Below are positions 24,801-62,711 of a DNA stretch of 64,000 nt, piece by piece. The notes below the pieces were generated by a model that was given only the letters and a program-made list of their open reading frames with translations, did not search any database and was not told the DNA's origin. Position 1 is the stretch's first letter; every line of letters starts with the position of its first letter. The stretch is from contig OZ004608.1 in assembly GCA_963924565.1 (NCBI GenBank), positions 15,376,001 to 15,440,000 on the forward strand, read 5' to 3'. The DNA comes from Ascidiella aspersa (taxonomy: Eukaryota). The position numbers and the translations under genes are program-made.

Positions 24801-27800
24801 TATGTTGCAGCCAAAAGTCAAGAGTGCGACACAAGGTGCCGTACTTGAAAATTTCTCAGCTTTATTTAACACCTATTAAAGTTCCTCGAATGTATAGTTA
24901 TCGTGAAAATGGCCGGAAAATATTTTTGTTTGGCCAGTAAATTATGATGAGCTGGCGAAGTTCTACATTTAAAAACGGAGGTGGCGAAGTTCTACATTCA
25001 ATGGACAAGCTTTAAACATCTTGCATTTTGCAACTACGACATAAAATTGTAATATATTGCGGACCGGAAGGGAAGTTGATGCGGACGGGCACCGGTCCGC
25101 GGACCGGCGGTTGAGAACCACTGTCCTAGGGGGAATGAAACAAGACCAACGGAATAAATAAAATACTACGAAGGTTTTTTTTAATGTAAACCTACCGTTC
25201 CAAAAAATCACACGTACCATTTGGGCTATCATGTACACTTTGGGTCCGAAGTACTTCGAGGTAATGTAGGTCTGTGCAAAGCGCGCGTAAAGGCCCACCA
25301 GGCTTATGCACAGAGAGAGCTTACCCATGTACCAAACGCTGTTGTCCGTTTGCTCACTGCAGAGTATTCCAATGCCTTAGTGTAAGTGTAGAAGTGTAAA
25401 TAACAAATAAGTGTATAATTATTTATTTACTTGTTGTAAAAATATGAGTGTCACAACTTTTTAAAGATATACACAAAGTTAAGATTTTGTTTCGAGGGAC
25501 CTAAAACATTTCTAGAGGTGACGAAAGTTAGTCACAGCGTGGCGCTCACAGAACTAATTTGTTTAACTTTTGATCCCCAGCTAACTTGTGCGTCAATATG
25601 TAGCGGAAGTTCAGTAAAATCGCGCGTAGCTAAAATGAGTGTATTTACATAGAAAAACAGTTTTGCTGGAACACGACTTATGGGTGCCCCTTGGGTCAGC
25701 CTCTGTGTACAGTCATAGCCTATGACTACATATTACTATTTTGTATACTGTTTATATTTTATTACTTTTTCTATTGGGAACACAGGATATATTTCGCGTG
25801 TAACCTTCTCCCTGGTCAATGTAGTGCTGAAAGGATTTGAGTTCTGTACTTTTAAACTAATTATGATTAATGAATAAAGCTCTCTTACACAAAAAAGTAG
25901 ATCATTTAGATTTTTTAATTAAATGAAGTTCTAAGTTTTCTAACGATTTTTATTAAAAAGTTCCGTTTTGCTAAGCGAAACGCTTTTTATTGAAATATGC
26001 ACCGCTCTAATAATGATTTTTCTTTCATATACATACCAACAGTAAAGCTCACGGTCATCATGATGTCTAACAAATTCCACTTGTCGCTTAACCAAGTCAA
26101 AATTCGCTTTAGGTAACTTTTGTTGTCAACAGAGGCAATCTGTAAAAAAACACAGGAAATTAAAGATAGGCCTATATCCAAACAAAATACCCAACAAAAC
26201 TACTATTTTAATTATTGTTGTTATGTCGACTGAACGTCGGTAACCAGTATCGTGTACAATATTGGACATGCGTGCACGTAAATAAGGCAATTTGAATACA
26301 TTTCACGGTTCTGTTCTAATCTAAGCTGCAGCCGCCAATGTTATGGCAATAAAACATTACTTCCAGAACAGGGGCGGTTGACCATGGTGTGTTAACCGGG
26401 TGTAATTACCCATTTGATTTTTTTACTTTCTGGGGGCGAATTTGGTATTTGTATGATGAATCATAATGTTGTGAACTATTGTTTATCCTCAGCGTTTGTC
26501 TTAATGACGCAAAAACATTTTTTTATGTTTTGTTATATATTTTATTATGTCAAGCGCGTTTTAATCTTCGTTTTAATCCGAGAGACATTTTATTTGGTTA
26601 TTCTTTTTGTAAAAAATCGATTGAAGCGGGGCTGAATCGTATGGGGAAGGTTAATTTTTTTCCATTTTGACTTGTTTACAGGTACTGTGTTTTTTAGGGT
26701 AAATTTCGTTTCGATCAGCTGTCAAAAACACACTTTACCTGTCGTATCTCATCTGCGAGGATGCCAAATACGTAGAATAATAGAATGATGATTTGTGTCC
26801 AGTAGATACTTAGCCGCTCGGCGTTTATAAAATGGAGTACATAGCTCAGCAAAACGATGGCAGCAAGCAAAAAAAGCTAAACATAAATTTTTTGAGTAAA
26901 GGTTATTTGTTTTCTTACAATACTCACTGTATGCTTTGTTTTACCGTATGTGTGAAGTAAGTTATACGTGGCGAATCGTAGAAATCGCGGATGTCATCTA
27001 ATGCGCCTAAAAAACGTCTTGACAAGGTTGGTTTGACACGAAGGGTATCAGTGGTTAAACTTCTTTGCAACAGGTCGGATAGATTACCGTTTTCACTAAT
27101 CGATTGACCTTTGAATAAAACGTATTTTAACTTTGCGCCTGACAAGCGGTAATAAATAATAACAATTCAGGGCCTAAGTTTAGTTTTTAGATTGTTATAT
27201 ATTTACTAGAAGTATTGTTTTTAGTTCATTTAATTTTATTTTTTCTTAAAGGAAAACTTATTTTTAAGTTACCATGTTTTTCTCTGTAACTGGCTTGAGA
27301 TTCCTTTGAAAATTTTGGAGAAAATCTCTGCAGAAATATGAGAAAATATTTGAATATTATAAATTATTTTGTGAGATACTCCATAGTTACATTGGTGTTT
27401 TGTTTAAAGATCAATTTGGAGAAAAACTTTAAAAGTCACAATAAAACATGACTAACACTATAAAAACAAATCTCACCTACCTTTTGGTCTCCATAACTTG
27501 AACTTTTGTCCCTTACTATGTTAAGCCAAGGAATACATAAAGGGAAGAATATTCCAATAAAAGTCTGCAAAAACATGAAATCACATACTGTATGTTAGAA
27601 AATAAGCACAACAAAAATAGGATTGCTTTGACCACTTCGCAGTTTAGAAAAATATTGCAAACAATTGTGTTAATGCGTAAACAATGCTAAAATAATTTAA
27701 GACGTGCGATACTATTGGAATATTAAAATGATTACAATATTTGTTCGTTTTTATGGTTTACCTTGTACATTGGCTGTTCTTGCGAAAGGCTTCCATACCA

Positions 27801-30800
27801 AATAGTATCCAAACTCCTCTGAACGGAAGGTTGTGCCATAAAGTCACGTTTACCCCCCATGTAGGCAAGAGTCAGACAAGAAAACCCGCCCAAATGCTGA
27901 AGAAAAATTGAATGATGTATCCGTACAGGCAAGTTAAGGCAGTCGAATGCGACGCGCGGGCCGCATATGAATCTTCATTTAGTTTTATGCAGCACTTTCG
28001 ATCAGGTTGTACACAGTATGCATTTTTCAAGATGTACAATGATACTTCTCATGTGCCAAATTTCATGCATATTTTAACTACTTTATTGCAAAAACTTTTC
28101 GCGATTTACTGGAAACTCGTTTACTTTTCCATTAGTCTGTTTTAACTTTTTAGCAATCGTGTTAGCTTAAACGCCGTAATGTCTTATGGCATTTCACTAA
28201 CATCCTGTGGAGGAAAAGCTTTTGACACTTTAGATCACAGCATCCATCTCCGATCTGCTCATATCCTTTTTCGTAGAGTCAAGTTAACAGATTTAGAAAC
28301 TTTGACAGCGTGATGATATCAGTGTTGTAATGACTTAAGTCAATGACTTGACTTAAGTGCACTTAAGTCACTGTTTTCAAATGACTTGACTTGACTTAAG
28401 TCATTTGGGCGAAATGACTTGACTTGACTTAAGTCTTTCGGGCAAATGACTTGACTTGACTTAAGTATTTTGGGCAAATTACTTAGGTTGAATTGAAGTG
28501 CTTTCTTTAAGTGTTTTTTTAATAAAATTGAGCTATTTATCCAAATGTTTGCACATAAAACAATTTGCTTGCTATAAGTTGCGTTTTTCTCATTTTTTAG
28601 TTCAGTTATTGCTCATAATCGTACGAGATTAAAAATTCCAATAGTTCAACGTTTTATTTTTACGACAAGGACATGAATTGAAGTTGACTTGCTCTAATTA
28701 TGACTTGACTGGGACTTGACTTGCGCAACTGATGACTTGGACTGGGACTTGACTTGTTATTTATTCAAAAAGACTTGACTTCGACTTGAGTTATTTTACA
28801 AATAACTTGACTGGGACTTAAGTCATTTCAAAATGACTTGTTTACAACACTGGATGATATTAATCGAAAGGTCCTGCAAGTTGATTAAAAATGGCTTCAA
28901 TGTAGCCCATAAGCAATGTTGTAAGTGTGCAACTTCCCTAATAATAAATCTAGCTGATTTATTTTGGTAAGTGGTAAAGAAACAGGATGTAGTGTGGCAG
29001 TTTACGGTTAGCTAAGTAAAAAATGTGGATTTTGGTCTCTGACGGTTTGCCAACCCTGTGCTTTAGAATATACCGTTATCCGATGCTTCTCTTACTTCCA
29101 GGGGCCGAAAACTAATTTCAAATACAATGACTGGAAAATGACGTTGACTGAAACACATTATTTTTATTTAGTGTTAGGATAAGAAATCGTATGATAATTT
29201 GTATGACTGGAATGTCACCGCGTTTTTTTATTTCGTTGTTTAAAAACTGAAAACCTAGAAAGAAGCAAAATAAGTCCACCAAGTGAAAAAAAATTAAAAG
29301 TGTGAAAACCTCTAGAAACAAACAACATAACGCGAGCACTGCCACTCAGAGATTTAATAAAATCAAAGAAAAATTTGTCAGTAGATTTTAGTTAAAAAAA
29401 AGTTTTACAGCGGCTAAAGTTAATCAGATAATAAAAATATTAGAGATATGTTGTTCGTTACTCATAAAAGTCTATTGTACAGATAAATTATATAACTTTT
29501 TACCGGTATTTTACTGCAAAGGATAGAGCGTGTTGTGTGTTCATGCTTTTTTGAAGTTAAAGTCACAACTTCGATTGCTTTCTCTTCCCAAAATCTGTAA
29601 TAAAACGTATTTAAAAAAAATGTATAACCTGTTGATGCCAAAACCGATGCTTGGTTACGTTTAGTTATGTCTCCACATCACAGTCAGTATATGGGTGATC
29701 TTCTTTAGCAGCATTTAACTTTCTATTTTTTAAGTTATATATATTTTCTCATTTATTATATTTTATGTATATAATGACTTGTAAACGTGACATAGCTCCT
29801 GTGCGGCTATCAGAAGCACAATAAGCTCCACGGTACAAAGAGTATGGTCAAACTATCTAATGGCTTGCGCTTTCATTTTACACTATACTGCAGTGGTATA
29901 CGTGGCTTATTAACAACTACAGCATTTTTATAGTATGCGTGACCACGACCATTTTTGATTAATTTTTCGTGTTCAAAAAAATTTCACGCAATAGGCCTTT
30001 TCAATAGTATGAAAAAGTATAGTTTCTGACATTTCGTTACTTTCCAAAGCGGTTCGCTAGTTTTCTTTCCTAAAAATGCAAAGATGAACGGTAAATATTT
30101 CATTTCGTTCGGACAACGCCAAATGGTCCCTAAGTGTTGTGTTACACTGTAAACTTCGAGGGTTGTTATAATCCACCTTGGGGTGGAAATTTGTAACAAA
30201 TATGGTGTTAAATTTCACTACCATGTGAACAAAGGTGGAAATAAACTCATGAGCGTGGGATTTTTCAACAACACCAGTAGTATGTGATTTATAGCGTGAA
30301 ATTCTCAACCCTGTCCTAAAAGTCATCGGTTATACATTTACATATTCCAAGTGTTAAATACGCCATTAAGCCTAGTCAAAGTCGGTAAAAAAGTTGTTTC
30401 GAAGAAAAGCCCTAGAAAATATTATAATGTTTTAAATTTGCACATGATAATCTTAGTCTAACACAGAACTAACATAGATAAATAAGTGCCAGTCAAAATG
30501 CGAGTAACTCGAAGATTGTTTTACAAACACTAATGTTTTGCTTCTTTGATTTACTACCTATTTCGTTCGTTTCAAGAGACTGAATCATGGGCTATTTGCG
30601 CTCAGCCTGGTTCAGCGGCATTGTGATGACTGTAAAGTATAGTGGCGCCGTAATGTACGTAAATTTGAATAAACATTTTCCAACTATTTCTAAAAGCAAC
30701 GTATAAGACTTACCTGGCATAATTGTTCAGTTCCTCAATAGTAATCATATCTTCATTGCTTTCAATCATTTGCTGCGCTATATTTCCACATAAGGTGCTG

Positions 30801-33800
30801 GCTAGCAAAGCCAAAGCTGTTTTTTTAAGATTTGTTTGTTATTTTTCTCTCGAGAAAATTTAGAAGATATGATAATTTATTAAAAGTTGTTTACACGGCG
30901 AATAACAAGCTTACAGCTTTTTTGGGGTTTATGAAATCATACTTTGATTAAACGTAATTAAGTTGCTTGACTTATGCTACCTATGTGATCTGTTCCGTGC
31001 AGCCAGACAGTTTTTGCCAATTCATTTCGGCCCATAATGACGCACCAAATAAAGACGTCCTGTATCGGGTGATCCACTGGTTCAAAATGTTCCGCAACAT
31101 ATACAGTCGTCAATCGATCGATGCGAGTTAATTTAGCTGAAAGTTGCAACAAACAACAGTGTACTAGTCACAATATCCGTATACAATCCCATTAAAACCT
31201 GCATAATGGTCTTAAAAGTCTATTTTTTTCTAAAACAGTTACCCAGTTGCAGACAATACTACTTTTATAATGTAATGTTTTATAACATAACAACAGCTTT
31301 GAGTGTACTATAGCCCTATAGCTTTGTACTTTAACGCAGTAAACTTGACCTAACAAAAACGATTTATATACTATTTAACGACCTACGTGTAGGCATTAAG
31401 CCATCTGTGTACTTCTCGTAAATGTCCTGGACCTCCTTGTTGGTAAAATCAGAGATGATGTGTTGAACTGTGTGGATAACATTTGGCACTTCGCCTCTAG
31501 TGCTAGCCAGAAAGGGGCGAAAGAATCGCATCGAGGGTGTGGTAAAATCGTCAAAGGCCAAAATCTAAAAGTGGACGAACTGAATATAACTATAACTATA
31601 GACAAGCTACTAATAAATATTTGAACAGGAAAATAATGCAGCCTATAAAATAACTATACAAAACAACCAAGCCTATACAAAAATGTGTTAAGGTTACTTT
31701 AACTTTGCATATTTAACCCTAAGGTGCATTTTTATGTGCTGTTTTTCCAAATTTTGCTAATGACATTGCTATATTGATTACCTGTAATAAGTCACATCGA
31801 AACTATCAGGGGTGTAAAGAGAGAAAATCACTTTTAGGAAATAGGAAAATAAAATTTTAACATTTGAGCGTTACCTGATAGTACATTTGGGAAAGAGTTT
31901 TTACTGTTATCGCACGATAGATGTCGATGTTTCCGGAGTGCATCATGTCGAGAAACACAGGTGAGTTGAATCCTAAGGCCATGACCAGGCAAGATTGCAG
32001 AAACTCGGGTTCAGGCTAAACAAAGTATATTAAGTTTTAAGCTGTGAATTTTCATTCGCTATCAAAATAACGTTATTACAATAAAACCAAAGGTATAATA
32101 ATGTATAAGGACAAAACTTCCAGAAGGAAAAAATGAGTTTCTTTTTTTTTGGTAAAAAACTATTTGGTCAAACTTATACCGACCGCCGAAAACTCTATTT
32201 TGGTCTGTAACAGCTGCTTGATAGTGTCTATCTTTCCCCATGACAATGCCAGTCGCAAAATAGCCCTGGTTGAATACCGCGGTTCTGTGTGAAGGTATAT
32301 GTTTGGTTAGATGGCTTAAATTAAAAGACAAATTTGCAACGAATCCTACCTGACATAACGTTTTCCAGCAAAAAATTGTCGAATGTTCGGCCTTTCAATG
32401 AGTCGGAAAACATTATCGGCATCTAAACAGTCATTTTCTAAGTTATGCGTGATGGTCCAAAGAAAAACTTGAAAGACTAAGATTAAATCCGGGATGACGT
32501 ACGGAAATAGTTTTGTCAGTCGTGCTCTGATGCTTCATTAGAACCGAGTGCAATATTCCCAGTTAAAAGTTTTAAATGTAGTGCTTATCAAGTATAGTTA
32601 AGAGTATAACTGCAAATCACACCGTTATTGTAAAGAATCTATATGTGTAATGTGTACTTTACTTATGTTATTATTTATACAATATATTTTACATCAGTAT
32701 TTATCTGGTGCTGTTGTTTAGGTTTTAGAACAATTTGCTACCGTTTTCGTCAGTCGAATCTAATTTCTTTACTCGATTTGCCCCATTACGCCACAGTCCA
32801 AGCACTTGCAAAAGGATAAATTATACGTTACCGTCTTCTTTGAACCCTGCAGTAACAACTTTATTTGTGAGATTTCGTAATGTGAAAGGCAATCGGTGAG
32901 GTTACACGACAGGTCTTCTTCATTGTCGGAACTGTCACCGCTTCTTTCACCATTTTTTCTGCCACAAAATGGTTTTGCTGTAGCATTGTAGAAGGTGGAA
33001 ATATTACGGGAGCTGATGCAAACTTTTGATATATCTATTGCTGATACAGTCAATGGTTATAGATTGAACTAAGAAACGATATAAAAACGCAAAAGTTATG
33101 ATTGAGATACGTTGTGCGGTAACAGTTTCTTTGTAACTTACATATTTTCCATTAATCTATTGCATAGGATAAAGGACTAATCCATTGGATCAATGACGAA
33201 CGTACCGGTAGAAAAAGTTATTTAATTTCGAAAACCTTGCTAAAAAATGTCATGCTGTGGTAGCCTTACTTACATTGCCTTATGCTTTTCTAGTATGCCG
33301 TAAGTTTCTTTGGCGCTTTGGTGAACGAAAAGCATCATATTTTGATTCCTCCTGGCACACTCAGAAATGTGCTCCCAATTGTCGGATATAAGGTTGACAA
33401 CCACTGGTATGGTGTGGACTACAAAAATATACTACTTACTTTATTGTGCAAAGGGAAGGTCATGCTCACAAAAAACTTCGGCTATATAAAAAGAACTATA
33501 AAGGGTAAAAGTAAGCTATAATATAATAATATTACACTTTCTCAGAGCGTGCAACTTAAGAACTCTTTCTGAACGCGAACAGCACTTAGTCGACCTGCCT
33601 ATGTCGTTATTTTACGATTAACTTACACACGGTAAACGTTGAATCAACGTCGACTGGAATGGATCCCAAGTAATTTGAAACTTCATGGCGAAACAATGAG
33701 ACATCTTTCGGCTCGCCCTCCACAAACACAAAGTAGCCGTGGTTTCGATCTAATAAGCCTTTGGAGCCAACTGCGTCCAATTTATAAACGACGGGGAACA

Positions 33801-36136
33801 AACCCTAAATAAAAAGCAACGCGTCACATGAAAATAAGTTAAGAAAAAACATTTTATAACTTATTTATGTATTTTTTGTTACAGCAACAATATAGCCCTT
33901 TCAAAATGTTTGCTTTATAACGCAGCCAATGTAGGTTAGAAAACGAATAAAAAGCTAAGATGAAACGATTCTTACGGTTAAATTTTGCTTAATGTTCTTT
34001 TCAACAAAATTTTATACAACACCAGACGTGGGGAATATTTTTTTACAGAGGGCCGCATGAGAAACATAAAATGTTGTAGCCAGCCGGGTCGAAAATAGGA
34101 TCTTATAGGTGCACACAACTTGACAAGTTGTTGGGGTAGTTGACCGAAATGTTTTTCACAATAAATTTACATTCTAAGCTCCACACTAATTTTGTATTTT
34201 ATGCATTTAGGAGACGACTGGTTGTCATAACGAACACAAAAAAAGAGTTGTTTTAGTTTAATATTGCATTGTTTAACATCATGCGAGTAAAAATATAAAC
34301 ATAACTATAGCCCCGGTAGCACAAGACTTACTCCTTGCTTAGAGGTGTACAATACGTCCTTGTTCTGCACAGTCTCCATACCGATTACAGCTATGCTGTT
34401 TGCATTGGATGTTCCTGAGAAGGGGGAGCATCCTGAGGTGATGATCCAGCTTCCTTCCGACACGAGCTGCCAAGACGATTCTTTCGCTTGGCCTTCTCCT
34501 GCGATGATAAGGATGATGTTGGGAATATGAATCTTCCACTGTTTGGTGAACAAGTTCCAGATCACTGATGGCTGGGTTTGCGCCGACACCGTGGCGAACT
34601 TTAAATATCAAGCGAGTTTAAATCTTTATTCAAGGTGTACTTTTATACAACCAAAACTATATTTATCTGTTTTTAAAAGGTCTACAGCTAAAACCTGATA
34701 AGTAAAAGCCAACTTGGCAGCGAGTTTTATTGCATCAATACACAAATGACAGACGAGTCGCAAAACGTAACAAACAACAACATTCGGTGAAAAGGACATT
34801 CCTTAGATCGTAAGCTGAATAAAACACGTAGATATACGCTGACTCATATTCTACAATTTAAGGTTTATAACGGTATGCCAATTTTAGCAACAGAGAAAAC
34901 GTCCTGAAGTATCCAGTTAGGTTAGATTTATACTTCACGTTAAAAGTAGAAACATGCTTACTTAAATAAGGACTTAAATCCGTTAAAACTAAATAATTTA
35001 AAAGTGATTCTATTTGAATGGAAAAAGGGTGTCGTGTGTCCAATCACTTCTTTTTAAAATGAAAAGTTCGGCAACTTCAGCGGTATAAAAGTGTTTTTTC
35101 GCTTTACGCTGCAGATAGCTTTTTTGTAATGTAGTTTTTTTTCTGATATTTTTTATCAGATGTGTAATTTCCCTAAGTTGCTTGTTTTTCGTATATAGCA
35201 CTGCGTCGCACACAAAACCATCAACATGTTTAATCGCAGCAATGATTGCATGTGCGCACACATGAAGCAGATACGGTAAACAAGTTATTGCGTCAACCTT
35301 GTGACTAAACCCATAACACGCAGGCCTATCTCAGTTTTACATTTGCTAATAAAAGCAAACTATCGAGATTCGATTTTGCCTTTAGCTCTTTCATAATACT
35401 CAAAAAGAACTAAAAAATGAATTTAAATCAGGGAAAATAAAAACTCGAAAACTTTAGCCTAATTAGTTTGTGCTGTTATTTCAGCCTCTGTACAAAACTC
35501 CTATACATACTTTTTTATTGCTATTAAGTTATTTTTGTACTTTAAAAGAGAATATTACTTTAACTAAATGTCGGTCAAAAATTGCAAGATCATTTTGTTA
35601 CTAGTAAACCCCTACTAAAAACTCATGCAGGCAGCCAGGGTTATCATAATTGTTTGACCATCAACTGCTTTGTCAATTTATAAAAAAAACTAATACACCG
35701 TACTTTTTGAGTTGTTATTTTGCATTTCTTTGTATAACGTAATAATTACCGGCGAGTAGGTACTCTTCCTTCCCACTTGTTCAAACTTAATCTCTCCGAA
35801 TGAATGTTTACTGATGCCATTTGATCCAGCGACGAACTTGCGCAGTTTTGTCTGTCCAAAAAAGACATCGTTAAAAATATATGTACTTTCTAAACAACAA
35901 ACAATATAATATCCGTACAACTGTGGAAAATACAAGCTTACGAAAGCTTAACAAGACGGAACTTACGAAACTTTAAAAACACCTAGAGGTGTAACGTGGT
36001 TTCGGCGACAATGACCTACTAGAGTAAAGGTCCAAAAGGTTAACTCAAAATCAAGCAATTTACAGACTACTACGATTTAACTCGCCTTCAGTTGGTGATT
36101 CGAAGATCCGCCTGATATTGATGACCTTAACTCCAT
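21840..36136 (-). CDS. TRPM (melastatin)-family cation channel, divergent, about 1110 aa, 25 exons
   Basis: Exons: 36086-36136 (GC donor), 35750-35851 (FGEIKF), 34332-34598 (W..P....I.G, SWIITSG), 33627-33804 (LDRNHGYFVFV), 33274-33418 (IPVV), 32832-33012, 32350-32422, 32184-32284 (LRLALSWGKID), 31875-32015, 31387-31564, 30981-31136 (FIWCVIMGRNELAKTVW), 30714-30816, 29504-29594, 27762-27896 (FMAQPSVQ..IWYG), 27477-27564, 26945-27108 (FYDSP), 26739-26876 (DEIRQ), 26037-26139 (DKWNLLD), 25218-25375 (FGPKVYMI), 24497-24591, 23677-23843 (PYWQIYG), 22780-22870 (NILMVNLLIAM), 22413-22588 (TRP helix), 22180-22309, 21840-21960. Total 3333 nt, open frame; a few boundaries are best guesses. Confidence 0.9.
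28320..28852. mobile_element. hAT-type MITE with GACTT subterminal repeats in a TRPM intron
   Basis: TIR CAGTGTTGTAA / TTACAACACTG, 8-bp TSD GATGATAT, many TGACTTGACTT(AAGT) units. Confidence 0.9.
30145..30325 (+). repeat. Dispersed repeat fragment (CACTGTAAA end), homologous to 1795-1917
   Basis: Direct nucleotide similarity; the spurious ORFs also share TNFHP.VDY.N...LQC. Confidence 0.6.
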
Positions 36137-42084: not shown

Positions 42085-44970
<2,886 letters not shown>

Positions 44971-51760: not shown

Positions 51761-54584
51761 GTGTGTTAGCTGGGAATGTATAGGCCTAATTTGTAGGCCT
51801 GTAACTTAAAAAGTTTCAGTTAAGCGAAAAAATTAATACTGACACGCAACAAAAATATTTTACTTGTTGTAGATAATTTTTACTTTATCAGAAAAAATAT
51901 GGGCACTCTTAATAATGATTTAGGTTTCCCAGTAATATCCAATATAACATGTGTTATTTCACGTTTCTAAACAGCACACTTTTTTTTCTGCTCGTTGATT
52001 GTTTTCTTCGTCAGGTGGCGCATGGCAGTCGCAATACCAACCATATGATAAATGTAAAAGTTGTAAGGGCACCTAATTTTATTATAACATTCATAATATT
52101 TTTTTCACAATGGCGAGAAAGTAATCAGTTGTTGTAAAACTCAAAACTGTCACGATTTTAACAAATACTTAACCCCATTGCAGAACACTGGATAAATGTC
52201 ATTCAAATGTTGTGCCAAAAATCTATATTAAACGTTTTAGAACGTAATTATTTGTGCCCGATGAGCAACTGCGATGCTGTAGGTTTTTACGTATTAATTT
52301 ATCAATACATTTTCATTTAGTATTATCAAATATTTTGTTGATTACGAAAGTAAATGCAACAGTCTTAATCTTTGAAGCAATTATAATTCACAATTTAAAC
52401 GGAGGCGAACAAAAAAAAACAGGATGCCATGAGATTTAATTAAAAAGATAATTAACATATTAGAGAACTAATGTAAATATTTTTACCCAGTTCAAGATTA
52501 AAACAATGTCTCTTTGCTGCTAAAACAATGTTCTATTTCTTGTACGTCACACACCGGGGGTGTATGTTTGCTTCTTTTCGAACTCGGCGCCCAAGTAAAT
52601 ACCGCAAGGCCGCTAGAAACCCATACTTAAGTGCAAAGCGCCACTAGCAAATATAACTATAAAGGACAATCATTATACTGTACACAATACACGCGGAAGC
52701 TGTGGCTTGGTTGCAAACAAAAGCCTACCGGTTCCTTATCGGAGAACTCTTGATAATCCCTTGATGTTCAGAACTTAGATATGGTGTTTTAAGCTTCTTT
52801 GCCTTGTGACTTTGGTTCCCAAGATTGTCGATTGACAAACAAATATCGTCGTCCGCCTCCGAAGCCTCCTACAATAGGATCTACCTCTTTGCCTTTGCAG
52901 TATACTATTGAGTTATTTCTTGTACACCGATGATGAAGTAGCCAACTTTTTTTGCACAACCTTGTCATTGAATCGTATTCCAATTAGATATTTTTTTCAG
53001 TAGGACGAACAAAATAACCTAAATTATTGAGGTCCACAATCAACACTTCAAAAGATACGAACCGCGTCCCACCAATTGAGTAGCCCTAAGATAGGCCGTT
53101 TCATATTGATAAACTTTGACAAACAGTTATAATCCTGGCAGCCCCAAAACTGCATTGGGGTAAAATATGACAATAGGAAAACTGCATGTGGTTACACAGT
53201 TCGAAGAGTTTTTAAGGAATGTTTTGCTAGGCTAAGTTTGTTCAATTGATGTTTTTAACTTTAATTGATGTTTTTTTTTTTTTAGTTTTAACTTATTAAG
53301 GGAAATGTAGTTGACCTATACATATAAAATAAATTTGTCATCATAAAAACGCTAGCTGTGTTTATTCACCCTTAGAGGTAGGCTACTTGATTTTATTTAT
53401 AAAAAACCCACACTTTTGTCAAATTAATTCAGTGATTTAATATCTGTGTATACCACAGTATGCTATGCTATGACGTAAAGTAATGTTTTTTCGTCGCTCT
53501 TCAGACAGCCGCAGACGATAAAAAATCTTTGTTGTTGGCTTTCCCTGAGTGTTTCTCAAAAAGGCGAATTAATAACTTGTCTAGAAGCGAGAGACCCCTC
53601 GAAGGCGACTCAAGACATCTGCGGCAAATCTTCGCAGCTGGATAAAGGAGTGACGTAGAAAGGATCTGCTGCGTCACCTGTCTGCCCATATTGGAAATAA
53701 ATTATTATCTCATGCTTTTGATTTTAACCTGTATATATTATATACCGTTTTCAGTTACGACAAACACAATGTACGACCGCTGTCAGGGCCTTTTATAGCA
53801 AGTTAAATAAGGACTTTAAGCAAATGAAAAACATTTTTTGTTCTGCGCGATATATAAAGTTTAAATTAGACAAATTTAAGCAGGGGAAACAAACCTTTTT
53901 TCGCACTAAATAAGCTCGCAAACACAAATATCACTAGTTGGCGAAAAAGGGCCTTGTGATTCGGTATGAGCAAAGGAAAGGCAATACTCGAAATTCCAAC
54001 TCTAAAAGTTGTTTTATTTGACAATAGAACGACTCAAGACAGTCTGGACGCTGTGGTGACGCGACGGAGCAATTATTGGGAACACTACTGTGGATAAGTA
54101 TATCGTGGATTTGTTGAGAAAATGCGCAAGTTTGACTCAGTTGTGAGTTGTGTACGAGTATAAGACGACCACTACGACGATCAAAAGGTGGCGTTTTACA
54201 TAGAGTGTTCTCTCGCTTCTCGCATAAGCTTTGCTTTGTTTGCTCGACGTCTTAGCCGTTTGCATCGTTACACGGGATAGCCGCCAAACAAAGTCAACAA
54301 GAGCAACACCGCGGTGCTTCCACGGGCTTAAATCGCGCACAACAGCAGAGCGACAGGAGGAACGCGGCGTGTTACAAGCTACAATCGTTTTTGTCGTGAA
54401 ATCATCAGCCTTCGCGCGTCGGCCGTATAAGACTTGAGTGCAGAAAGGAGGGGAAGAAGAGAGTGCGAATTCCCACCAAAAATCGACTTGAAAGGGCTGA
54501 TCGCTGGTTTTGTTCGGAAGAGCCTTATAGATGCGGCATGGACCGCGACCTGTATGGATGAATTGGCCAGTTGCTGCTTGAACG

Positions 54585-57500
54585 ATGATGTTTGTTCACA
54601 CCTCTCCAGTCCGAGCGGTCGCCACCTGGCTGCTTTTGATTATGGCATGTTATGCATGCAACCCCGGCCCTGGTACCGGAAGGCGACGTGTCAACAGGAA
54701 CGCGAGGCCCCTAAGGATAGGCGAGAGTGTTCCAGCTATGTCGGAAACAACACTTGGGGCAAGCGGTCCCAGTGAAGGTCGAATAGTTCGTGGCACTTCA
54801 AGGTACGCTGCGTTGCAGACCAATGTGAGGGCCAACGACATTATCTACGATCGGGCGAACGAGAGGCTGCACCTAATGACAAAGGTAGGTTTTGTCTCAA
54901 GGTATTTTCGTTACGCAGTTTACCGTTTTTAATGTAGGCTAATATCGCTTGTTTCCCCACATTTTGTTTTATAAAAGTGCTCCAACCAAAACAATTTTAA
55001 TAAATGTTTTCTGGCGCATGTTTCTATCCTAAACAAAAAAAGCTGGTACAGTGGTTTAATTTGCATTGTGTTTTTGATTAAAGCATTAAGCACTTCCGGG
55101 AGTGCTTTAAACATTTGCCGATCAGCAAAGAAATTTGTTAGAAGTGAGCTGACTGGGTAGGCGAGTATATTTCTGGTTTTCAAACTGTTTACTGAGGCTG
55201 TTTATCCCGAATGGTCAACTGTCACTAAGTAATCAAACTGATCCACCCGTTGATATGGGCCGATCGGCGGCCATTTTAAAAACGTTCACACGCGAATTCG
55301 CAACGTCAGCGACCGTCTTACAAACAGTTTCAAAAGTCGAAACGTCAGAGCTGAAAGGTTTGCACTTTAAACAAAAAACAATCGCAAAAAGAACTAGTCG
55401 GTAAACGGATAGTGACGGTGCCGGCTTCTCGTCGGTTGTAACCTGGGGAAACGCCTTGTTTTGCTCTGCGTAAATGGCCATTACCTATATTTAGGTGCAT
55501 GGATATACAACTAAACTGCGACATTAGTTACGCCCTTTACGGACAATCGCGGTGATAAGGTGGAGTTTATTTTGCGAAATACTGTGGCACGACGAGGTTG
55601 GTCGGAGGCAGGGTTATCAGCATCGGCAGCCAGTTGCTTTATACTCCGAGTTAATATTTAACGTTTGACCGAACCGGAAACTTTTACGATATCGATCTCC
55701 TCCTGCCTTGCCTGCCTTTACGGGTGTATAGTACGTCACGTCACCGGCTGGGAGAATAAGTGACGGGCCAGACTTTACGTCACCTATCGTTTGTCCAATG
55801 CTCTCGCGAATGAGAACGGCCGAGCCGACGCATTCACACACCCATGTGCGCGCACGCCATTTGCGGTTACCGCAGCCGATTGTCCGCAGCACCGCAAAAC
55901 TAGTGCCGTCTCAATGCTATACATGCGGTTACGCAACCGCAACGATTGATCTAGATCTAGAAAAATCCACTCTCTCGGCAAACAAGCCCGCTGCCTTCGG
56001 TGCCTTACAAGCTGTCGATTGAACTTCCCCCAGAAGTGGCCCGGAAGCAGCAACGACCGCTCGTCATTTGGCGTCAGCAAAATCGAGCGACGGCTGTCCA
56101 ACCTTCTCGGTTCGCAAATAGTCTCGTTTTTTTGACCGCAGTTCCATTATTCCATCTGCGCCGGCAAATGTTGTGTAAAGGGAGAAACGTGTGCCGGGCG
56201 AATAAGGCGACGGTACTTTTTTAGAGAAAAAGAGTAAACTTGAATATAAATGTTAGATTTTCAACTTTATATATCACCGGCCTGCAATAGTAAAACAATT
56301 TTTTGACAAATATTTAAAAAAATGATTCTTGTGAAGGTCATAAAATAGGTTGAAAATAAAATCTTTAATACTAAAAAAAATCTTTTTGATAATCAAAATT
56401 ATACATGATAGTAGAACTTTATAGTCCCTTTTCTTATCTTGCGCAGATTTTGACAAAATAATGCAACAAAATTTTATTTTGAAGCATGCGATAAGAAAAC
56501 CCCATTACAAAAAAACACGAAAAAATGTTTGAGGGTGGCTGTAGTGTGTTGCTGATATGTGTGTCAAACGTTTTTGTACTTCTGCCAAGAATTTGTTGAT
56601 TGATCGTGGCTGCGAGATCAAAGCTCGGCCGAGGTAGCAAAGATTTTGGTTGCGTTTCAAGAAGGGTTACATTCCAATTTTACTACGGGTCTTATATGAC
56701 ATATTTGAAAATGTCTTGCCTTTGTTCATTTTACTGCTTCTGGCGTACGATCCCAAAAACACAACGTTTTCCATTAAACCAACTACGTTTCGTCATGTGA
56801 CAAACTTGAAGGACAGCTCTTCAACCGGTTCACAATTTTGCTATATATATAGGGCAGATACAACCGTAAAATATATTATACGTGACCGTTTTTGAAAAAA
56901 AATTAAAAAAAAAAAAAAAAATATTTTATGTTTTTCCTATTGATCTTGTCTTTCTCGATTGGCATAAATAGTGATCGTCGTTTCACAACTGTTATAAGAT
57001 CACATATAAAACAAGGTCACTCAGACTCACTTTTCTGTTGCTTAACCCTGGCAAACACGTCGATGTTTTTACCCAGTTTTCTATACAAGCAAATAAGTTG
57101 TTTACTGATATACACTTCCGTTGTTAAAATGAAAATACAAATTTTAAGTAATACCCGTATGTAATTTTACCACGATTAGACAAATATATCAATAATAAAT
57201 TAATGCAGGTTGTAACAGCGATATTAATATTAATAAATTGAACAGAGTAACTTGAAAGCTAACAACTTCACGTTCTTGAGAACATTTACCTAGGTTAATA
57301 ATTAGGATACAAAAGGGTTTATAAAATTTTCTACGAATAATGCCTTTTTGTTGTCTCAACCCAACAACCAGTGCCATAAGTGCGTTTTTTTGTCGTTTAA
57401 TAATGCCACGAATAATGATTAATCTGTATAGTTTGCTTCATTACGTCAGATTTTCTTATGTATTGCTTAATTGTGGTGGCACAGGTAACGGTCGTTTTAG

Positions 57501-60500
57501 TTGTTTGGAATTTTATTAGGAGGAAAACATAATTAATCATCACGTAAAAATCACTTAATTTGAATCCAATAACTCTTATAGTCAACTCTATTAGATTAGT
57601 TTGTCCCGCTTTCGTCGTTCATTTGAAGAGTTTGCCTTTCTTAGCGGCTTCCCCGTTTGCAACAAATTGACAAAACCGAGTAAAACGGTTTACTGCATAC
57701 CTAAACCGATTGTAAGTTGTAAATCAGTTGTTTTGGGGGCAATTGTCCTGTGTTACAATTCATAAATTGTTACATTTAACGCTCTTAGTTAGCCCCGTGC
57801 CGGTGTTGTTGACCTAACGAGCGGGCGTACCATTCTAAACATAGGATGTTTTGGTTTGGTGTTTTCTCAGAAAATAGGGACCAGGCACAGACAAAAGGTC
57901 GCTACCCAATCGCGTTTGGCTCAATGACGGCCCTGAAGCCTTGGGTGCGCTTTTTCACGGTTGTTGTGACTATATGATAACGACTGACGTTAATTCCAAA
58001 CCCACCTCGAGTCGCCGCCATTCAGATTTCTTCGCAGTGTTAGGGCAACGCGAATCCTTGACAAAACGCTGGCCGCTTACCGAAGCGAGGTAAGTGTAGT
58101 AAACTGCGAAGTTTGGAAAGCACTTCAGATTCGCCCAGGTCCCCACTTATGACTTTCCCTCTTTATAGGAAAAAGCCCTTAATTGTCAGCACGGCGAGTC
58201 GTCTTTACTTGATTGTATGGATCAGTTCGTAATATCCCCTGTGGCCCCTTTATGGTTGTGTTTGCCTCCCCCTTTAGTGATAGCCAGCCAAGTTTATGTT
58301 TCACATTTACAATACTGTCTATACTGTACGTATTTAAACTAAAACACACCTAAAAAACTATATAGGGTATCACACAGTTAATTCGGGATGAAAGCTATCA
58401 AATCTTAGGATAGAAAAAGTCGCATTTGGTTTCTTAAAAGTTAAAACCCTTTTTTGGTTCTAATTGTGTGCAACTGTCAAGTCATTTAAGGGGGATTTAT
58501 GTTCCCCCAGTACCATTACTAGGTATTTATAGTCAAGTAGGCCTATCCGTTGTGGGATGGGTAAGGGTGTGAGAGGCACTTTACATGAATATGTATTAAT
58601 AGTCACCGAAGGGTCTTCACCGCAAATTTAATGTAAATTTTTTACATTTTTTTTACTCCTTGAGGATCCTCTTATTTAAAATTCAGCACCTATCTTTTGC
58701 TTTATAATGGGGGACAAAGATTAGGATAATATTCCATTTTGTAATTCTCTTCACTTCTTGGATGATAATTTTTAAAGAAACATACGATGTAATTTGAGAA
58801 AACGATTAAGCATAAATATTTTAGCCATGGTTCGTCCACCCAACGAAAACTTTGGCTCGAAAAAGTTTATGATGTGTTATGTGTAGGAAGTTATCTAGCA
58901 GCATGAAACTGGGATGCTGCTGTAAACTAATAAATAAATAATTGTAACTACTTCCGCAAAATGATGACTACCCACATCAGTTATGTAAATCAATTTGCCA
59001 GTTGCCGTTTCCCTAAAAAGTAAGCTAAAAATGATAATAAAATCAGAAAGTAATGCAAACTATTAAATCGCGAAAAACGTTTCATGGTTCACGGTGATTG
59101 AAAGCATTTTTGAAATACGAATGATCCAAAATGTTTTTTTTTTTCGAGAAAATATTTTGAAAATTAATTTAAATCAATATTTGTCGCGTGCGAACAACGC
59201 AGGGACTTAGATTACGTAATTTATTTTATGTGGAAACAACAAACATTAGCTATCATAAAATTAAAATGATGGGGTCACGTAAACTCGCACTTTGACCTTT
59301 TTAACATTAATGTCGCCATTTGAGTGCAGCAATGTCGTACAAGTCACAAAAACCACAAAAAGAAGAACATGGAACACATACTGTTGAGAAACGTCACACT
59401 TATAGTTAGGCACCAGGAAGCTAGACGCTTTAAATATAAATTCCCTATAAACTTGAAATTCCCTAATTTCAGGAAAGAAACAGTCTTTGTGGTAAATTAC
59501 TTAGTGCTCTGGACCTTACCTTGGTGTGTTTTCATCTCGTAGTCTATGTTCTAAATGGTTTACCGTTCACCGAGATGGACCGGTCTTATAATAACCCATT
59601 TTTTTGTTGTTAGAGGTGCAAGGACAGGGTGAATGCTCTCGCCCTTTTGGTGCAAAGCCGATGGCCCCGTCTGAGGCTTAGAGTTTTAAGATCCTACATC
59701 GACCATCAGATCTACAAACTGGAATCACCTTTGCATTACGAAGGTAATAACGATGCTGAGTAATAGCCAAGAAAGGGAACGATGAAACAGTTCTACACCT
59801 ACGTTTATTGGTATTTACTTTTGACTATACACACCCCGATTTCTTCATATAATATTGATTCGAGAACTAATTATTTATTTACAGCAAATATTTTAAACAA
59901 CTCCAGTAGCGGATATTCGCCTGTAACATCTGTAACCACTGAAAAGTTAGAAATTAAGTTTTAGGACTATATGTTCATTAACGACTTAAACGCATTTTGA
60001 AAAATAATAAAATGGAGAATAATTATACCTAAGTTCACTTTTAAAGGGAATAAGTTTTGAAATACATATCGTTGTGTGTTAAACAGGCCTTCGCTCAGCA
60101 TAAAAACGGGGTTTAGCAAACTTACTTATATAACTACCCGACCCCGCGCCACTTTGGTGCAGGTCGTAATTCTCACTCGCGCGAAGTCAACAAAAAACAG
60201 TATTAACCCTATACCACTTCGCCCTTTAAAAACGTCGCGCGACCCCTGACGCAGTACCATCACCGTTTTGGAAACGGCCCGTAAGTATGCGGCCAAACCC
60301 ATCTGTCATCAGCGCTTGTTTGTTGGCATCGCTTTATTGCGAATTGTCGCATCGTCAAACCTTGTCGCTTTTGTTTACCTGAAGGGCGCGCGGTGGACTT
60401 TATCACAAGCGACAACGACCGAAACAAAATCGGCTATCTCGCCCGCTTGGCGGTGATGGCGGGCTTCGACTGGGTCCGCCATAAACGAACCTTCGTCCAC

Positions 60501-62711
60501 GCAAGTGTCGTAGCAGGTGAGCGGCGCAAAATTAACGCTAAATCTTAGGTCTACCATATTTATGACGGTAACAATGCTGATAAAATTTACAATGGCAGAC
60601 AAGACCTTGGTTTTTGGCGGATACGAATTATTTCTTTATCACTATCAATATTCATCAAAAGCTGATTTTTATTTTTTTACTAATCCTTATCCTACCTCAT
60701 CCCTATTACAACATAAACCCACACTGAAGTATACTTTAACATCCAGGAAAACATATATAAACGTTATATACATCAACAAACGGTGTTTTGCCAAAACATC
60801 CAACAAGTTTGTCCCATTATAAAATCTTCCAACTTTTACAAACCAAAACAAAAAATGTGATTTGCAAATCTATATATTCGGGATTTAGAATGAGTTGACT
60901 TTTACTTAGAGATGCGATTTAAACGAAGTCAATAAATCCTTTATAAATCACTTGAACATATTTAAGGCTGTTTTGCAACTTTTTTACCTTATACTTACGA
61001 AAGAAACGCCTATTTACCAATTGTAAACCGACTTTGTGTCATGTTGTCAAAAAACAAATGCTTTAAAATTAGTCATACCAATTTAAATAAAAGGGCCAAC
61101 CTGTTTCGGATTAAAAACGTTTTTAAAATACATACCCAGTCACACTTTTTTGTGTTGTACTATGAAAAACCTATTGGGCTGTGACCAAATTGACTTGTTC
61201 AAACCGTTTATACCGTGTTGTTAGGCAATTTTAAGTACAGAAACTTTTCAAAAGACGTTAAGCTTCTTTCATCTCTCGTTAGAAGTATACATTTAGGGGA
61301 ACAACTGTTTCTCTTTTTAAGAGCCGAGAAAATGCGTGTGTGTTGTGTGTGATTTCTCAACGCGAGCCTTACGTCGTTTTTTGAACGAGTTGTTATTTTT
61401 GGGCATTAGCCGTCCATCGCAGTAGCAGCCTGTTCAAACAGTAAGCGGAAATTTCAAAGGAAATAAACTCATAACCACACGTGAGGTGCGTATTTCACAC
61501 AGCATTATGATGGATCGAACAAAGCACCGACAGTTGCACAGGCTTTACGGGGTGAAACAAACCCATCGCACGTTAAGCAATCGGGACGCTAAATAAAAGT
61601 GTATATCGTTGTATTTGCTTACCCGCGGCACCTGGAAGAAAGCATGTCCATCGAATGTGCTCAACAATGACAACATGAGGTTTATCAACCGATGCCAAAA
61701 CCACGTCAAAACTAACAGTATATGTGTCGGTTACACAAACAGTTCGGGATCCGTTTGGAGCTTCCCCCTAAATCGCCTTCATAGATATAATCTCCAAACC
61801 ATAGAAATAATCCCCAAACCAAATGGTCACATACTGTATAAAGTTTTGTTGAACATCTATAAAGTTTTATAAGACCAAACAACCATTTAACAAGCGTTAT
61901 TTAAACCGAAATTAAGACTTTGATGGTCATTAAATTTATAACTATTTCCAATGTCTGATTTGCAGTGAACTACCTTTATTTTATACCTATTTATTCAGAA
62001 AACTCGGATATGGAATTGTACGGTGGGTGCTTCACAGCTGACAGTTCCGTGCACCTTAAAAGCGGAGAAACAATACCAATGAGTCAACTGAAGGTCGGCG
62101 ACTCTATCCTGGCTTCCGTAAGGTCCAGTGGCGCACTGCAGTACAGCGAGGTGGTTGCCTTTCTCGACAAGGACTCATCAGTTTCAAGTAGTTTCATCGA
62201 AGTCAATACGGATCGGGGAAAACTGACCCTGACACCAAACCACATGCTTTTCGTCGCTGACCAGTCGTGCATGCCACGCAACTCTACTACGAGTGAGTCG
62301 GGCCGAAGCTTTACGCCGGACTGGCGGAACTGCGCAAACGCAATTCACGCGTCGCGCTTAAAAGTCGGCCAAATCGTGTTCGCAACGCCACCGGGCGGAC
62401 TAAAACCTATCGGTTCGCTGACGCTAGCAGGCGCCAAAGTTGCGGGGTTAAGGCGAACGCAGAGACGCGGCGTTTTCGCTCCCTTGACGAAGCACGGAAC
62501 TTTGGTGGTTGACCATATAGTGGCGTCTTGCTACGGCGTTTATTTCAGCGAACCCCTGGCGCATGCCGCCCTTTATCCGTTAAGGACTTTTACATTTTTT
62601 CAGCTTTCAAGTACCATGGGTAAAAGTGATGCAGGCATCCACTGGTACCCCAAAGCACTTTTGCAAGGCGCCCTAACGATTTTGCCAAAATCCATGTTTC
62701 AGCTTGTTTGA
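54585..62711 (+). CDS. hh: Hedgehog precursor (signal peptide, Hh-N, Hint/Hog autoprocessing domain), about 424 aa
   Basis: Exons 54585-54884 (signal peptide, [24 protein letters not shown]), 59614-59743 ([23 protein letters not shown]), 60385-60516 ([12 protein letters not shown]...LARLAV.AGFDWV..VHASV), 61999-62711 (GG/CF, LTLTPNH, FAPLT.HGT.VVD...SCY, GIHWY). Confidence 0.96.

What the first reader, a model, noticed from the sequence alone, without database searches (positions are those of the whole stretch)
54830..60516. Hedgehog ligand lacking the Ca2+-binding acidic cleft and the E177 equivalent
Seen: [15 protein letters not shown] replaces [29 protein letters not shown] replaces RVTEGWDEDGHH, and WVRHKR replaces WVYYES, while LHYEG, RAVD and VHAS are retained. 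Known (mouse Shh numbering): E91, D96, E127, D130 and D132 bind two Ca2+ needed for CDON/BOC and high-affinity PTCH1/HHIP binding; H141, D148 and H183 bind Zn. Inference: the Zn ligands are kept but the Ca site is largely lost and more basic, implying Ca-independent or altered receptor engagement, perhaps through the palmitoylated N-terminus only.
Basis: partly seen in the sequence, partly recalled or inferred. Interest (0 to 1): 0.7.

Follow-up and report, generated by a model that had tools for sequence, protein, structure and literature searches.

The report
Sea-squirt Hedgehog without its calcium site
An intact, spliced Hedgehog signalling gene, likely from a sea squirt, has replaced most of the calcium-binding residues that are almost invariant in other animals while keeping its zinc site and self-cutting tail, so it likely signals to its receptor mainly through its lipid-bearing front end.

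Summary
The window encodes a complete four-exon Hedgehog (424 aa), probably an ascidian hh2 orthologue. All three introns are confirmed by a spliced contig, and the exons are identical in a separate DNA assembly. E90, E91, D96, E127 and D132 are non-acidic in every alignment register seen; only D130 may survive. H135, E177 and H181 are also lost, while the zinc triad, N-terminal Cys and Hint motifs are kept. The signalling domain has net charge +12 (114 non-tunicate Hedgehogs: -10 to +7). The changes sit at positions mutated in human brachydactyly A1 (IHH E95, D100, T130, E131, S182/K183). New context: the genome has a second Hedgehog that keeps E127 and E177; 11 of 13 ascidian-type first exons already lack a loop acid; and E177 is also lost in brachiopods and an annelid. 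This gene is thus the extreme of an ascidian-wide erosion. Most likely it is a lipid-arm-driven, calcium-independent ligand with weak co-receptor binding. Relaxed selection is the main rival. No fold, binding test or co-receptor sequence could be obtained. The scan's notes held nothing similar.

The parts
54038..54584 (+). 5' untranslated region (minimum extent) with five upstream ATGs
   Evidence: X3 contig pieces cover 54038-54443 and 54451-54833; ATGs listed
54585..54884 (+). Coding exon 1: signal peptide (24 aa), mature N-terminal Cys, basic RRRVNR cluster, E54, degenerate calcium loop 1
54657..54659 (+). Cys25, predicted palmitoylation site after a hydrophobic signal peptide
   Evidence: aligned to Shh C25; hydropathy up to 2.5; lipidation inferred
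54837..54878 (+). Calcium loop 1 ([14 protein letters not shown]): E90, E91 and D96 positions non-acidic; loop net one residue shorter
59614..59743 (+). Coding exon 2: T126 to Leu, E127 to Arg (59689-59691), W129 to Tyr, one Asp left (59701-59703), D132 lost, H135 to Lys or Tyr, one-residue insertion, zinc ligand H141 kept (59734-59736)
60385..60516 (+). Coding exon 3: zinc ligands D148 (60396-60398) and H183 (60498-60500) kept; E177 to Lys, H181 to Phe, one-residue deletion near S178
61999..62711 (+). Coding exon 4: G|CF cleavage site (62025-62030), Hint domain with TxxH (62232-62243) and SCY, sterol-recognition region, stop
   Evidence: Pfam Hint E 9.4e-50; motifs
54885..59613 (+). Intron 1 (4729 nt, GT-AG)
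59744..60384 (+). Intron 2 (641 nt, GT-AG)
60517..61998 (+). Intron 3 (1482 nt, GT-AG)

Best explanation
This is an intact, spliced Hedgehog gene, likely an ascidian hh2 orthologue, whose protein has lost most calcium ligands but kept the zinc triad, and it likely signals to Patched mainly through its lipid-bearing N-terminal arm. Shown: gene structure, splicing, residue states, and the presence of Patched, Smoothened and HHAT-like genes. Inferred steps: (1) the precursor is secreted and cuts itself at G|CF, adding cholesterol; (2) Cys25 is probably palmitoylated; (3) zinc is probably still bound and serves folding rather than catalysis, since E177, H135, H181 and E127 are gone; (4) the binuclear calcium site cannot form, so the face used by Cdon/Boc, Hhip and the second Patched copy binds weakly or not at all; (5) signalling would be calcium-independent and probably of low potency or short range. 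The loss is the end point of an erosion under way across ascidian Hedgehogs.
For: Residue table: 110 of 116 non-tunicate hits keep 6 of 6 acids and 5 keep 5; the 1 outlier (P0169) is a repetitive gene-model artefact. This protein keeps at most 1. In a larger set, 116 of 122 distinct segments keep 6 of 6. Of 7 highly conserved non-zinc residues of the metal centre, 6 changed, against 20 of 73 elsewhere (p = 0.004, post hoc); 3 of 3 zinc ligands and E54 are kept. The signalling domain evolves faster than in three ascidian hh2-type proteins (p < 0.05 in 9 of 12 non-independent relative-rate tests) and the Hint domain does not (0 of 12). Equivalent human IHH changes disrupt binding to CDO, Patched, Hip and Gas1 (PMC8314500, passages citing McLellan 2008 and Kavran 2010). 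A palmitoylated N-terminal peptide alone partly activates signalling through a separate Patched interface (PMC6534611, passages). In this genome's Patched, 0 of 8 alignable residues of the globular-site interface are identical and an ECD2 loop is 5 residues shorter (residue list from PMC9917202).
Against: Nothing was folded or assayed. With the zinc ligands included, clustering of changes in the metal set is not significant (6 of 10 vs 20 of 73, p = 0.064). The paralogue changes as many conserved positions outside the set (20 of 73), so the lineage may simply be fast. The first basic residue is at position 9, outside the rule for mammalian HHAT (PMC8061759), although gar Dhh and 5 of 7 ascidian proteins also break it. 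The Patched loop changes have no invertebrate control, and a solved Patched-1 chain (7rhq) also differs at 221/222. Orthology to hh2 has only 92/84 support on a long branch, and an exon-1 tree joins the two own paralogues with a long-branch warning.
Confidence: 0.48

Rival explanations
1. Relaxed selection: Hedgehog signalling matters less in ascidians, this ligand is partly redundant with its paralogue, and its surface is drifting without a new binding mode.
For: 26 of 83 conserved positions changed, 20 of them outside the metal set; the paralogue changed 23. Erosion is clade-wide. Ciona motor neurons form without Hh (PMC10963430, passage citing Hudson 2011). Only 15 reads lay on 8.9 kb from about 6% of RNA run X5. 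Upstream ATGs precede the start.
Against: Open frame, correct splicing, 0 of 22 substitutions in coding DNA (p = 0.033 if uniform), Hint at a normal rate, zinc triad and E54 kept, and exon 3 is 66% identical to Ciona hh2.
Confidence: 0.27
2. Charge swap: Arg and Lys side chains stand in for the calcium ions, so the same face binds acidic Patched loops or heparan sulfate constitutively, co-adapted with the receptor.
For: Net charge +12 against -10 to +7 in 114 others. Basic residues lie at 127, 135, 177 and, in two registers, 90. Patched keeps acids at 221, 951 and 958.
Against: The same charge reversal in human IHH (E131K, E95K) disrupts partner binding (PMC8314500). Of the 8 Shh residues of the CDO interface listed there, K88, E90, H134 and R154 are changed and one of S178/K179 is deleted.
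Confidence: 0.18
3. The site is rebuilt: remaining acids (D89, the Glu of RANE, the Asp of YIDH) bind one calcium ion.
For: Five acids remain in the two loop windows counted, and both loops carry indels that could shift side chains.
Against: E127, which ligates both ions (PMC4102407), is Arg; E91 and D96 are absent in all registers; four basic residues share the same windows.
Confidence: 0.07

Closest known systems
Ciona intestinalis hedgehog homolog 2 (NP_001027635.1 / XP_078485003.1) and C. savignyi H2ZHI5
   Same: Nearest relatives in the full-length tree; 51% identity in the signalling domain and 44% in the C-domain; zinc triad and Hint kept; partial erosion already present (E90R in C. intestinalis; D96A and E127S in C. 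savignyi; H135 kept).
   Different: They keep 4-5 of 6 acids and E177. This protein keeps at most 1, loses E177, H135 and H181, and has three small indels.
Vertebrate Shh/Ihh/Dhh N-domain (PDB 3d1m, 3n1f, 6e1h)
   Same: Same domain order, zinc ligands, N-terminal Cys and cleavage motif; 48% identity to deer Shh in the signalling domain.
   Different: The calcium ligands and much of the CDO/Hhip/Patched globular interface are replaced.
Drosophila Hedgehog
   Same: A natural Hedgehog without the putative catalytic E177.
   Different: Mirror image: flies lose zinc ligands D148/H183 and keep the calcium acids (PMC4102407, PMC6027127); this protein keeps zinc ligands and loses the calcium acids.
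Human IHH brachydactyly A1 alleles (E95K/G, D100N/E, T130N, E131K, S182-K183 deletion)
   Same: The equivalent positions (E91, D96, T126, E127, S178 region) are all changed here (PMC8314500).
   Different: In humans each single change is a dominant disease allele; here they are combined in what appears to be the normal gene of the species (same sequence in runs X1, X3).
Hedgling and Hedglet proteins
   Same: Hedge domains that lack catalytic or calcium residues (PMC8052667, passages).
   Different: Hedgling has no Hint domain (PMC2362128, PMC6027127); this gene has an intact Hint and groups inside ascidian Hedgehogs.

Membership tests
Hedgehog ligand family | N-terminal HH_signal domain followed by a Hint domain in one reading frame | tested here: met
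Hedgehog ligand family | Signal peptide exposing an N-terminal Cys | tested here: met
   Hydrophobic stretch then Cys aligned to C25; cleavage itself is predicted
Hedgehog ligand family | Autoprocessing motifs (G|CF, TxxH, SCY) | tested here: met
   cleavage not assayed
Hedgehog ligand family | Palmitoylation by HHAT | tested here: inconclusive
   HHAT-like exon with the H379 equivalent; first basic residue at 9, not within 7 (PMC8061759)
Hedgehog ligand family | Signals through Patched and Smoothened | not testable with these tools
   Both genes present; no binding or signalling data
Calcium-binding Hedgehog (Shh-type cleft) | Acids at E90, E91, D96, E127, D130, D132 | tested here: not met
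   At most 1 of 6
LAS / Hh DD-peptidase zinc centre | Zinc triad H141, D148, H183 | tested here: met
LAS / Hh DD-peptidase zinc centre | Catalytic E177 with E127, H135, H181 | tested here: not met
   Lys, Arg, Lys/Tyr, Phe
Ascidian hh2 orthology group | Groups with Ciona hh2 while the paralogue groups with the other Ciona Hedgehog | tested here: inconclusive
   92/84 and 98/93 in the full-length tree; exon-1 tree disagrees, with a long-branch warning; synteny not tested

The most novel reading that the evidence does not exclude
Ascidians have repeatedly dismantled the calcium and co-receptor face of Hedgehog, and this protein is a natural lipid-arm-only morphogen working in a pathway that has lost or uncoupled Cdon/Boc, Gas1 and Hhip, with a matching loss of the globular-site loops in Patched.
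Probability: 0.25. Interest if true: 0.75.

Novelty: new variant of a known kind. Interest (0 to 1): 0.5.

Why it matters
The calcium acids are described as almost completely conserved across Hedgehogs (PMC4102407), and loss of E177 as unique to drosophilids (PMC8052667, PMC6027127). The sequences found here contradict the second statement and show a lineage where the first fails. A natural ligand with zinc but without calcium or catalytic residues separates two debated questions: whether the palmitate arm suffices for signalling in an animal, and whether the zinc centre is catalytic or structural. It also combines several brachydactyly-type changes in one apparently normal gene.

Tried and rejected
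Assembly or splicing artefact: rejected. Pseudogene: rejected (open frame, spliced transcript). Unique one-off: rejected. Word-based homologue search with exon 1 found nothing, nor did a metagenome scan. No close orthologue with a full signalling domain turned up; P0286 is a Hint exon only, 46% identical. So dN/dS could not be computed. The run search listed no holder on record as RNA, which is no evidence either way. RNA reads of X5 were too few for junctions. Genome searches for the Hhip propeller, GDNF/GAS1 and the Boc linker found nothing; the fn3 search was dominated by one titin-like locus. These exon-wise searches have no animal control and do not show absence. One Folate_rec locus proved not to be Hhip-like. 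The Patched exon holding E212 and D217 could not be aligned. The Atlas gave no result. No model of the spliced signalling domain was obtained, so the 'rebuilt site' question rests on alignments. Three look-ups in the scan's notes gave nothing relevant.

Full report
Gene. The quoted peptides lie in three exons of a four-exon gene on the + strand: 54585-54884, 59614-59743, 60385-60516 and 61999-62711, giving 424 aa with a signal peptide, an HH_signal domain and a Hint domain. One 1016-nt contig of run X3 (kind not on record) skips exactly the three predicted GT-AG introns and shows 0 differing letters in its three listed pieces. A DNA contig of run X1 covers the gene with 22 substitutions, none coding. 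In run X2 exon 1 and the exon-3 contig are identical; 15 difference rows were not shown, so exons 2 and 4 are unchecked there. RNA run X5 gave 15 reads from about 6% of its data, some on exons 3, 4 and the 3' end.

Identity. The genome holds two Hedgehog loci, this one and one at C2:34.13-34.16 Mb. In a 29-protein tree all seven tunicate-type rows form one group (96/97). The window protein is sister to Ciona hh2 (92/84, branch length 2.26) and the paralogue to C. savignyi H2YWW3 (98/93). An ascidian source is inferred from this tree. An exon-1-only tree joins the two paralogues with a long-branch warning, so hh2 orthology is probable, not firm. In Ciona, hh2 is expressed in the ventral neural tube (PMC5791209, passage), and motor neurons form without Hh (PMC10963430, passage).

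Metal sites (mouse numbering). The calcium ligands are E90, E91, D96, E127, D130, D132 and the putative catalytic set is E127, H135, H141, D148, E177, H181, H183 (PMC4102407, passages). The window protein has R, A, L, R, D, Q at the six calcium positions in the MAFFT alignment. The profile alignment shifts the exon-1 loop but also gives no acid at 90, 91 or 96. D130 survives only if the one-residue insertion is placed right after the W129 position. H135, E177 and H181 become K (or Y), K and F, while H141, D148, H183 and E54 are kept. Among 116 non-tunicate full-length hits, 110 keep six acids, 5 keep five, and 1 is a repetitive gene-model artefact. A second count used 196 hits, dropped 5 that lacked the anchor motif and collapsed the rest to 122 distinct segments: 116, 5 and the same artefact. 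These sets are top hits of Ciona-based queries and favour canonical proteins. Net charge of the signalling domain is +12, against -10 to +7 (median +4) in the 114 with a measurable domain.

It is the extreme of a trend. Each of the five named ascidian proteins lacks one or two of the six acids. Among 150 first-exon hits from the 50%-cluster library, 127 could be parsed: 114 keep E90, E91 and D96, 13 do not, and 23 were unparsed. Seven unnamed fragments fall in a 96/96 clade with six named or own ascidian proteins (bootstrap not fully settled). Reading the printed sequences, 11 of these 13 lack at least one of the three acids and 6 of 13 lack E91 or D96. P0070 in the clade, and P0015 (closest to Styela by score but unplaced), lack all three. 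A spider protein and a few unnamed fragments outside the clade also lose E90/E91. The own paralogue lacks E91, D96 and D130 but keeps E127, H135, E177 and H181. E177 is Gln in Lingula, Terebratalia and Owenia (3 of 116), Asn in one C. savignyi protein and Asp in Styela, against the statement that its loss is unique to drosophilids (PMC8052667, passages; PMC6027127, parts 1-2 of 4).

Selection. The signalling domain is faster than in three hh2-type proteins in 9 of 12 relative-rate tests and the Hint domain in 0 of 12 (tests share sequences). Of 83 positions at least 95% conserved in 115 non-tunicate proteins, 26 changed: 6 of 10 in the metal set and 20 of 73 outside (p = 0.064); leaving out the three zinc ligands gives 6 of 7 (p = 0.004, post hoc). 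The paralogue also changed 20 of 73 outside the set, so general acceleration is real.

Partners. A Patched gene lies at C2:23.68-23.70 Mb. Of ten PTCH1 residues that hydrogen-bond Shh in 6DMY (PMC9917202, passage), eight could be aligned: E221D, D951E and E958D are conservative; Y222K, G378L, Y379S, E380F and E947S are not. A five-residue deletion removes 953-957 in the HMMER alignment, including M956, an interface residue (PMC8847689, passage). No invertebrate Patched control was available. Smoothened-like and HHAT-like exons with the H379 equivalent are present. Cdon/Boc, Gas1 and Hhip were neither found nor excluded.

Mechanism. One Shh binds two Patched molecules, one through the calcium-mediated globular face and one through the palmitoylated N-terminal peptide, and such a peptide alone partly activates signalling (PMC6534611, passages). 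Human IHH changes at the equivalents of E91, D96, T126, E127 and S178/K179 cause brachydactyly A1 and disrupt binding to CDO, Patched, Hip and Gas1 (PMC8314500, passages, citing McLellan 2008 and Kavran 2010, which I could not open). All those positions are altered here. The simplest reading is that the globular face is disabled while secretion, cleavage, lipidation and the zinc-stabilised fold are retained, leaving the lipid arm as the main route (0.48). Shh E177 mutants signal poorly at a distance (PMC8052667, passages), which would fit short range. Against this, the N-terminus misses the basic-residue rule of mammalian HHAT (PMC8061759, passage). Rivals are relaxed selection (0.27), charge swap (0.18) and a rebuilt single site (0.07).

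Novelty. Five of ten literature searches aimed at ascidian Hedgehog or metal-site conservation and listed no paper on calcium-site loss in ascidians. The supplement of PMC8052667 held as text has no tunicate names. The primary ascidian papers (Takatori 2002, Islam 2010, Hudson 2011) were seen only as citations, and an alignment there could show the partial Ciona losses. PMC2362128, PMC13181345 and PMC8037537 were searched by passage and added little. Verdict: a real, well-supported sequence variant of a known ligand family with an untested mechanism; interest 0.5.

Noticed in passing
window 54122-54775: Five upstream ATGs in the transcribed leader; one (54554) opens a 73-codon out-of-frame ORF overlapping the Hedgehog start, which could damp translation.
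   Followed up: partly
G000:C2:34133000-34160100 (L001, L003, L005, L009): Second Hedgehog with a two-residue insertion in calcium loop 1, loss of E91/D96/D130, net charge -8, a long N-terminal extension and repeats inside its Hint domain.
   Followed up: partly
P0174, P0176, P0179: E177 is Gln in Hedgehogs of Lingula, Terebratalia and Owenia, with the zinc triad intact.
   Followed up: no
G000:C2:23680800-23702200 (L018-L020): Patched with a long N-terminal cytoplasmic exon (about 440 codons of open frame), a serine-rich insert in ECD1 and a shortened ECD2 loop.
   Followed up: partly
window about 1900-14100, minus strand: Exons of an ion-channel gene (Pfam Ion_trans); resemblance to a voltage-gated sodium channel is from recall.
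   Followed up: no
window about 24900-34700, minus strand: Exon-like ORFs resembling a TRPM-type channel by recall; the three tested gave no Pfam hit.
   Followed up: no
window 43739-44257: Ribosomal protein S17 exon.
   Followed up: no
P0169: A moth 'indian hedgehog-like' database protein made of tandem repeats of one exon-sized segment, probably an assembly or annotation artefact.
   Followed up: no
G000:C9:12838073-12838312 and C3:39079581-39079865 (L025, L031): Two HHAT-like exons, both with the WHG motif; only the first was compared with HHAT structures.
   Followed up: partly
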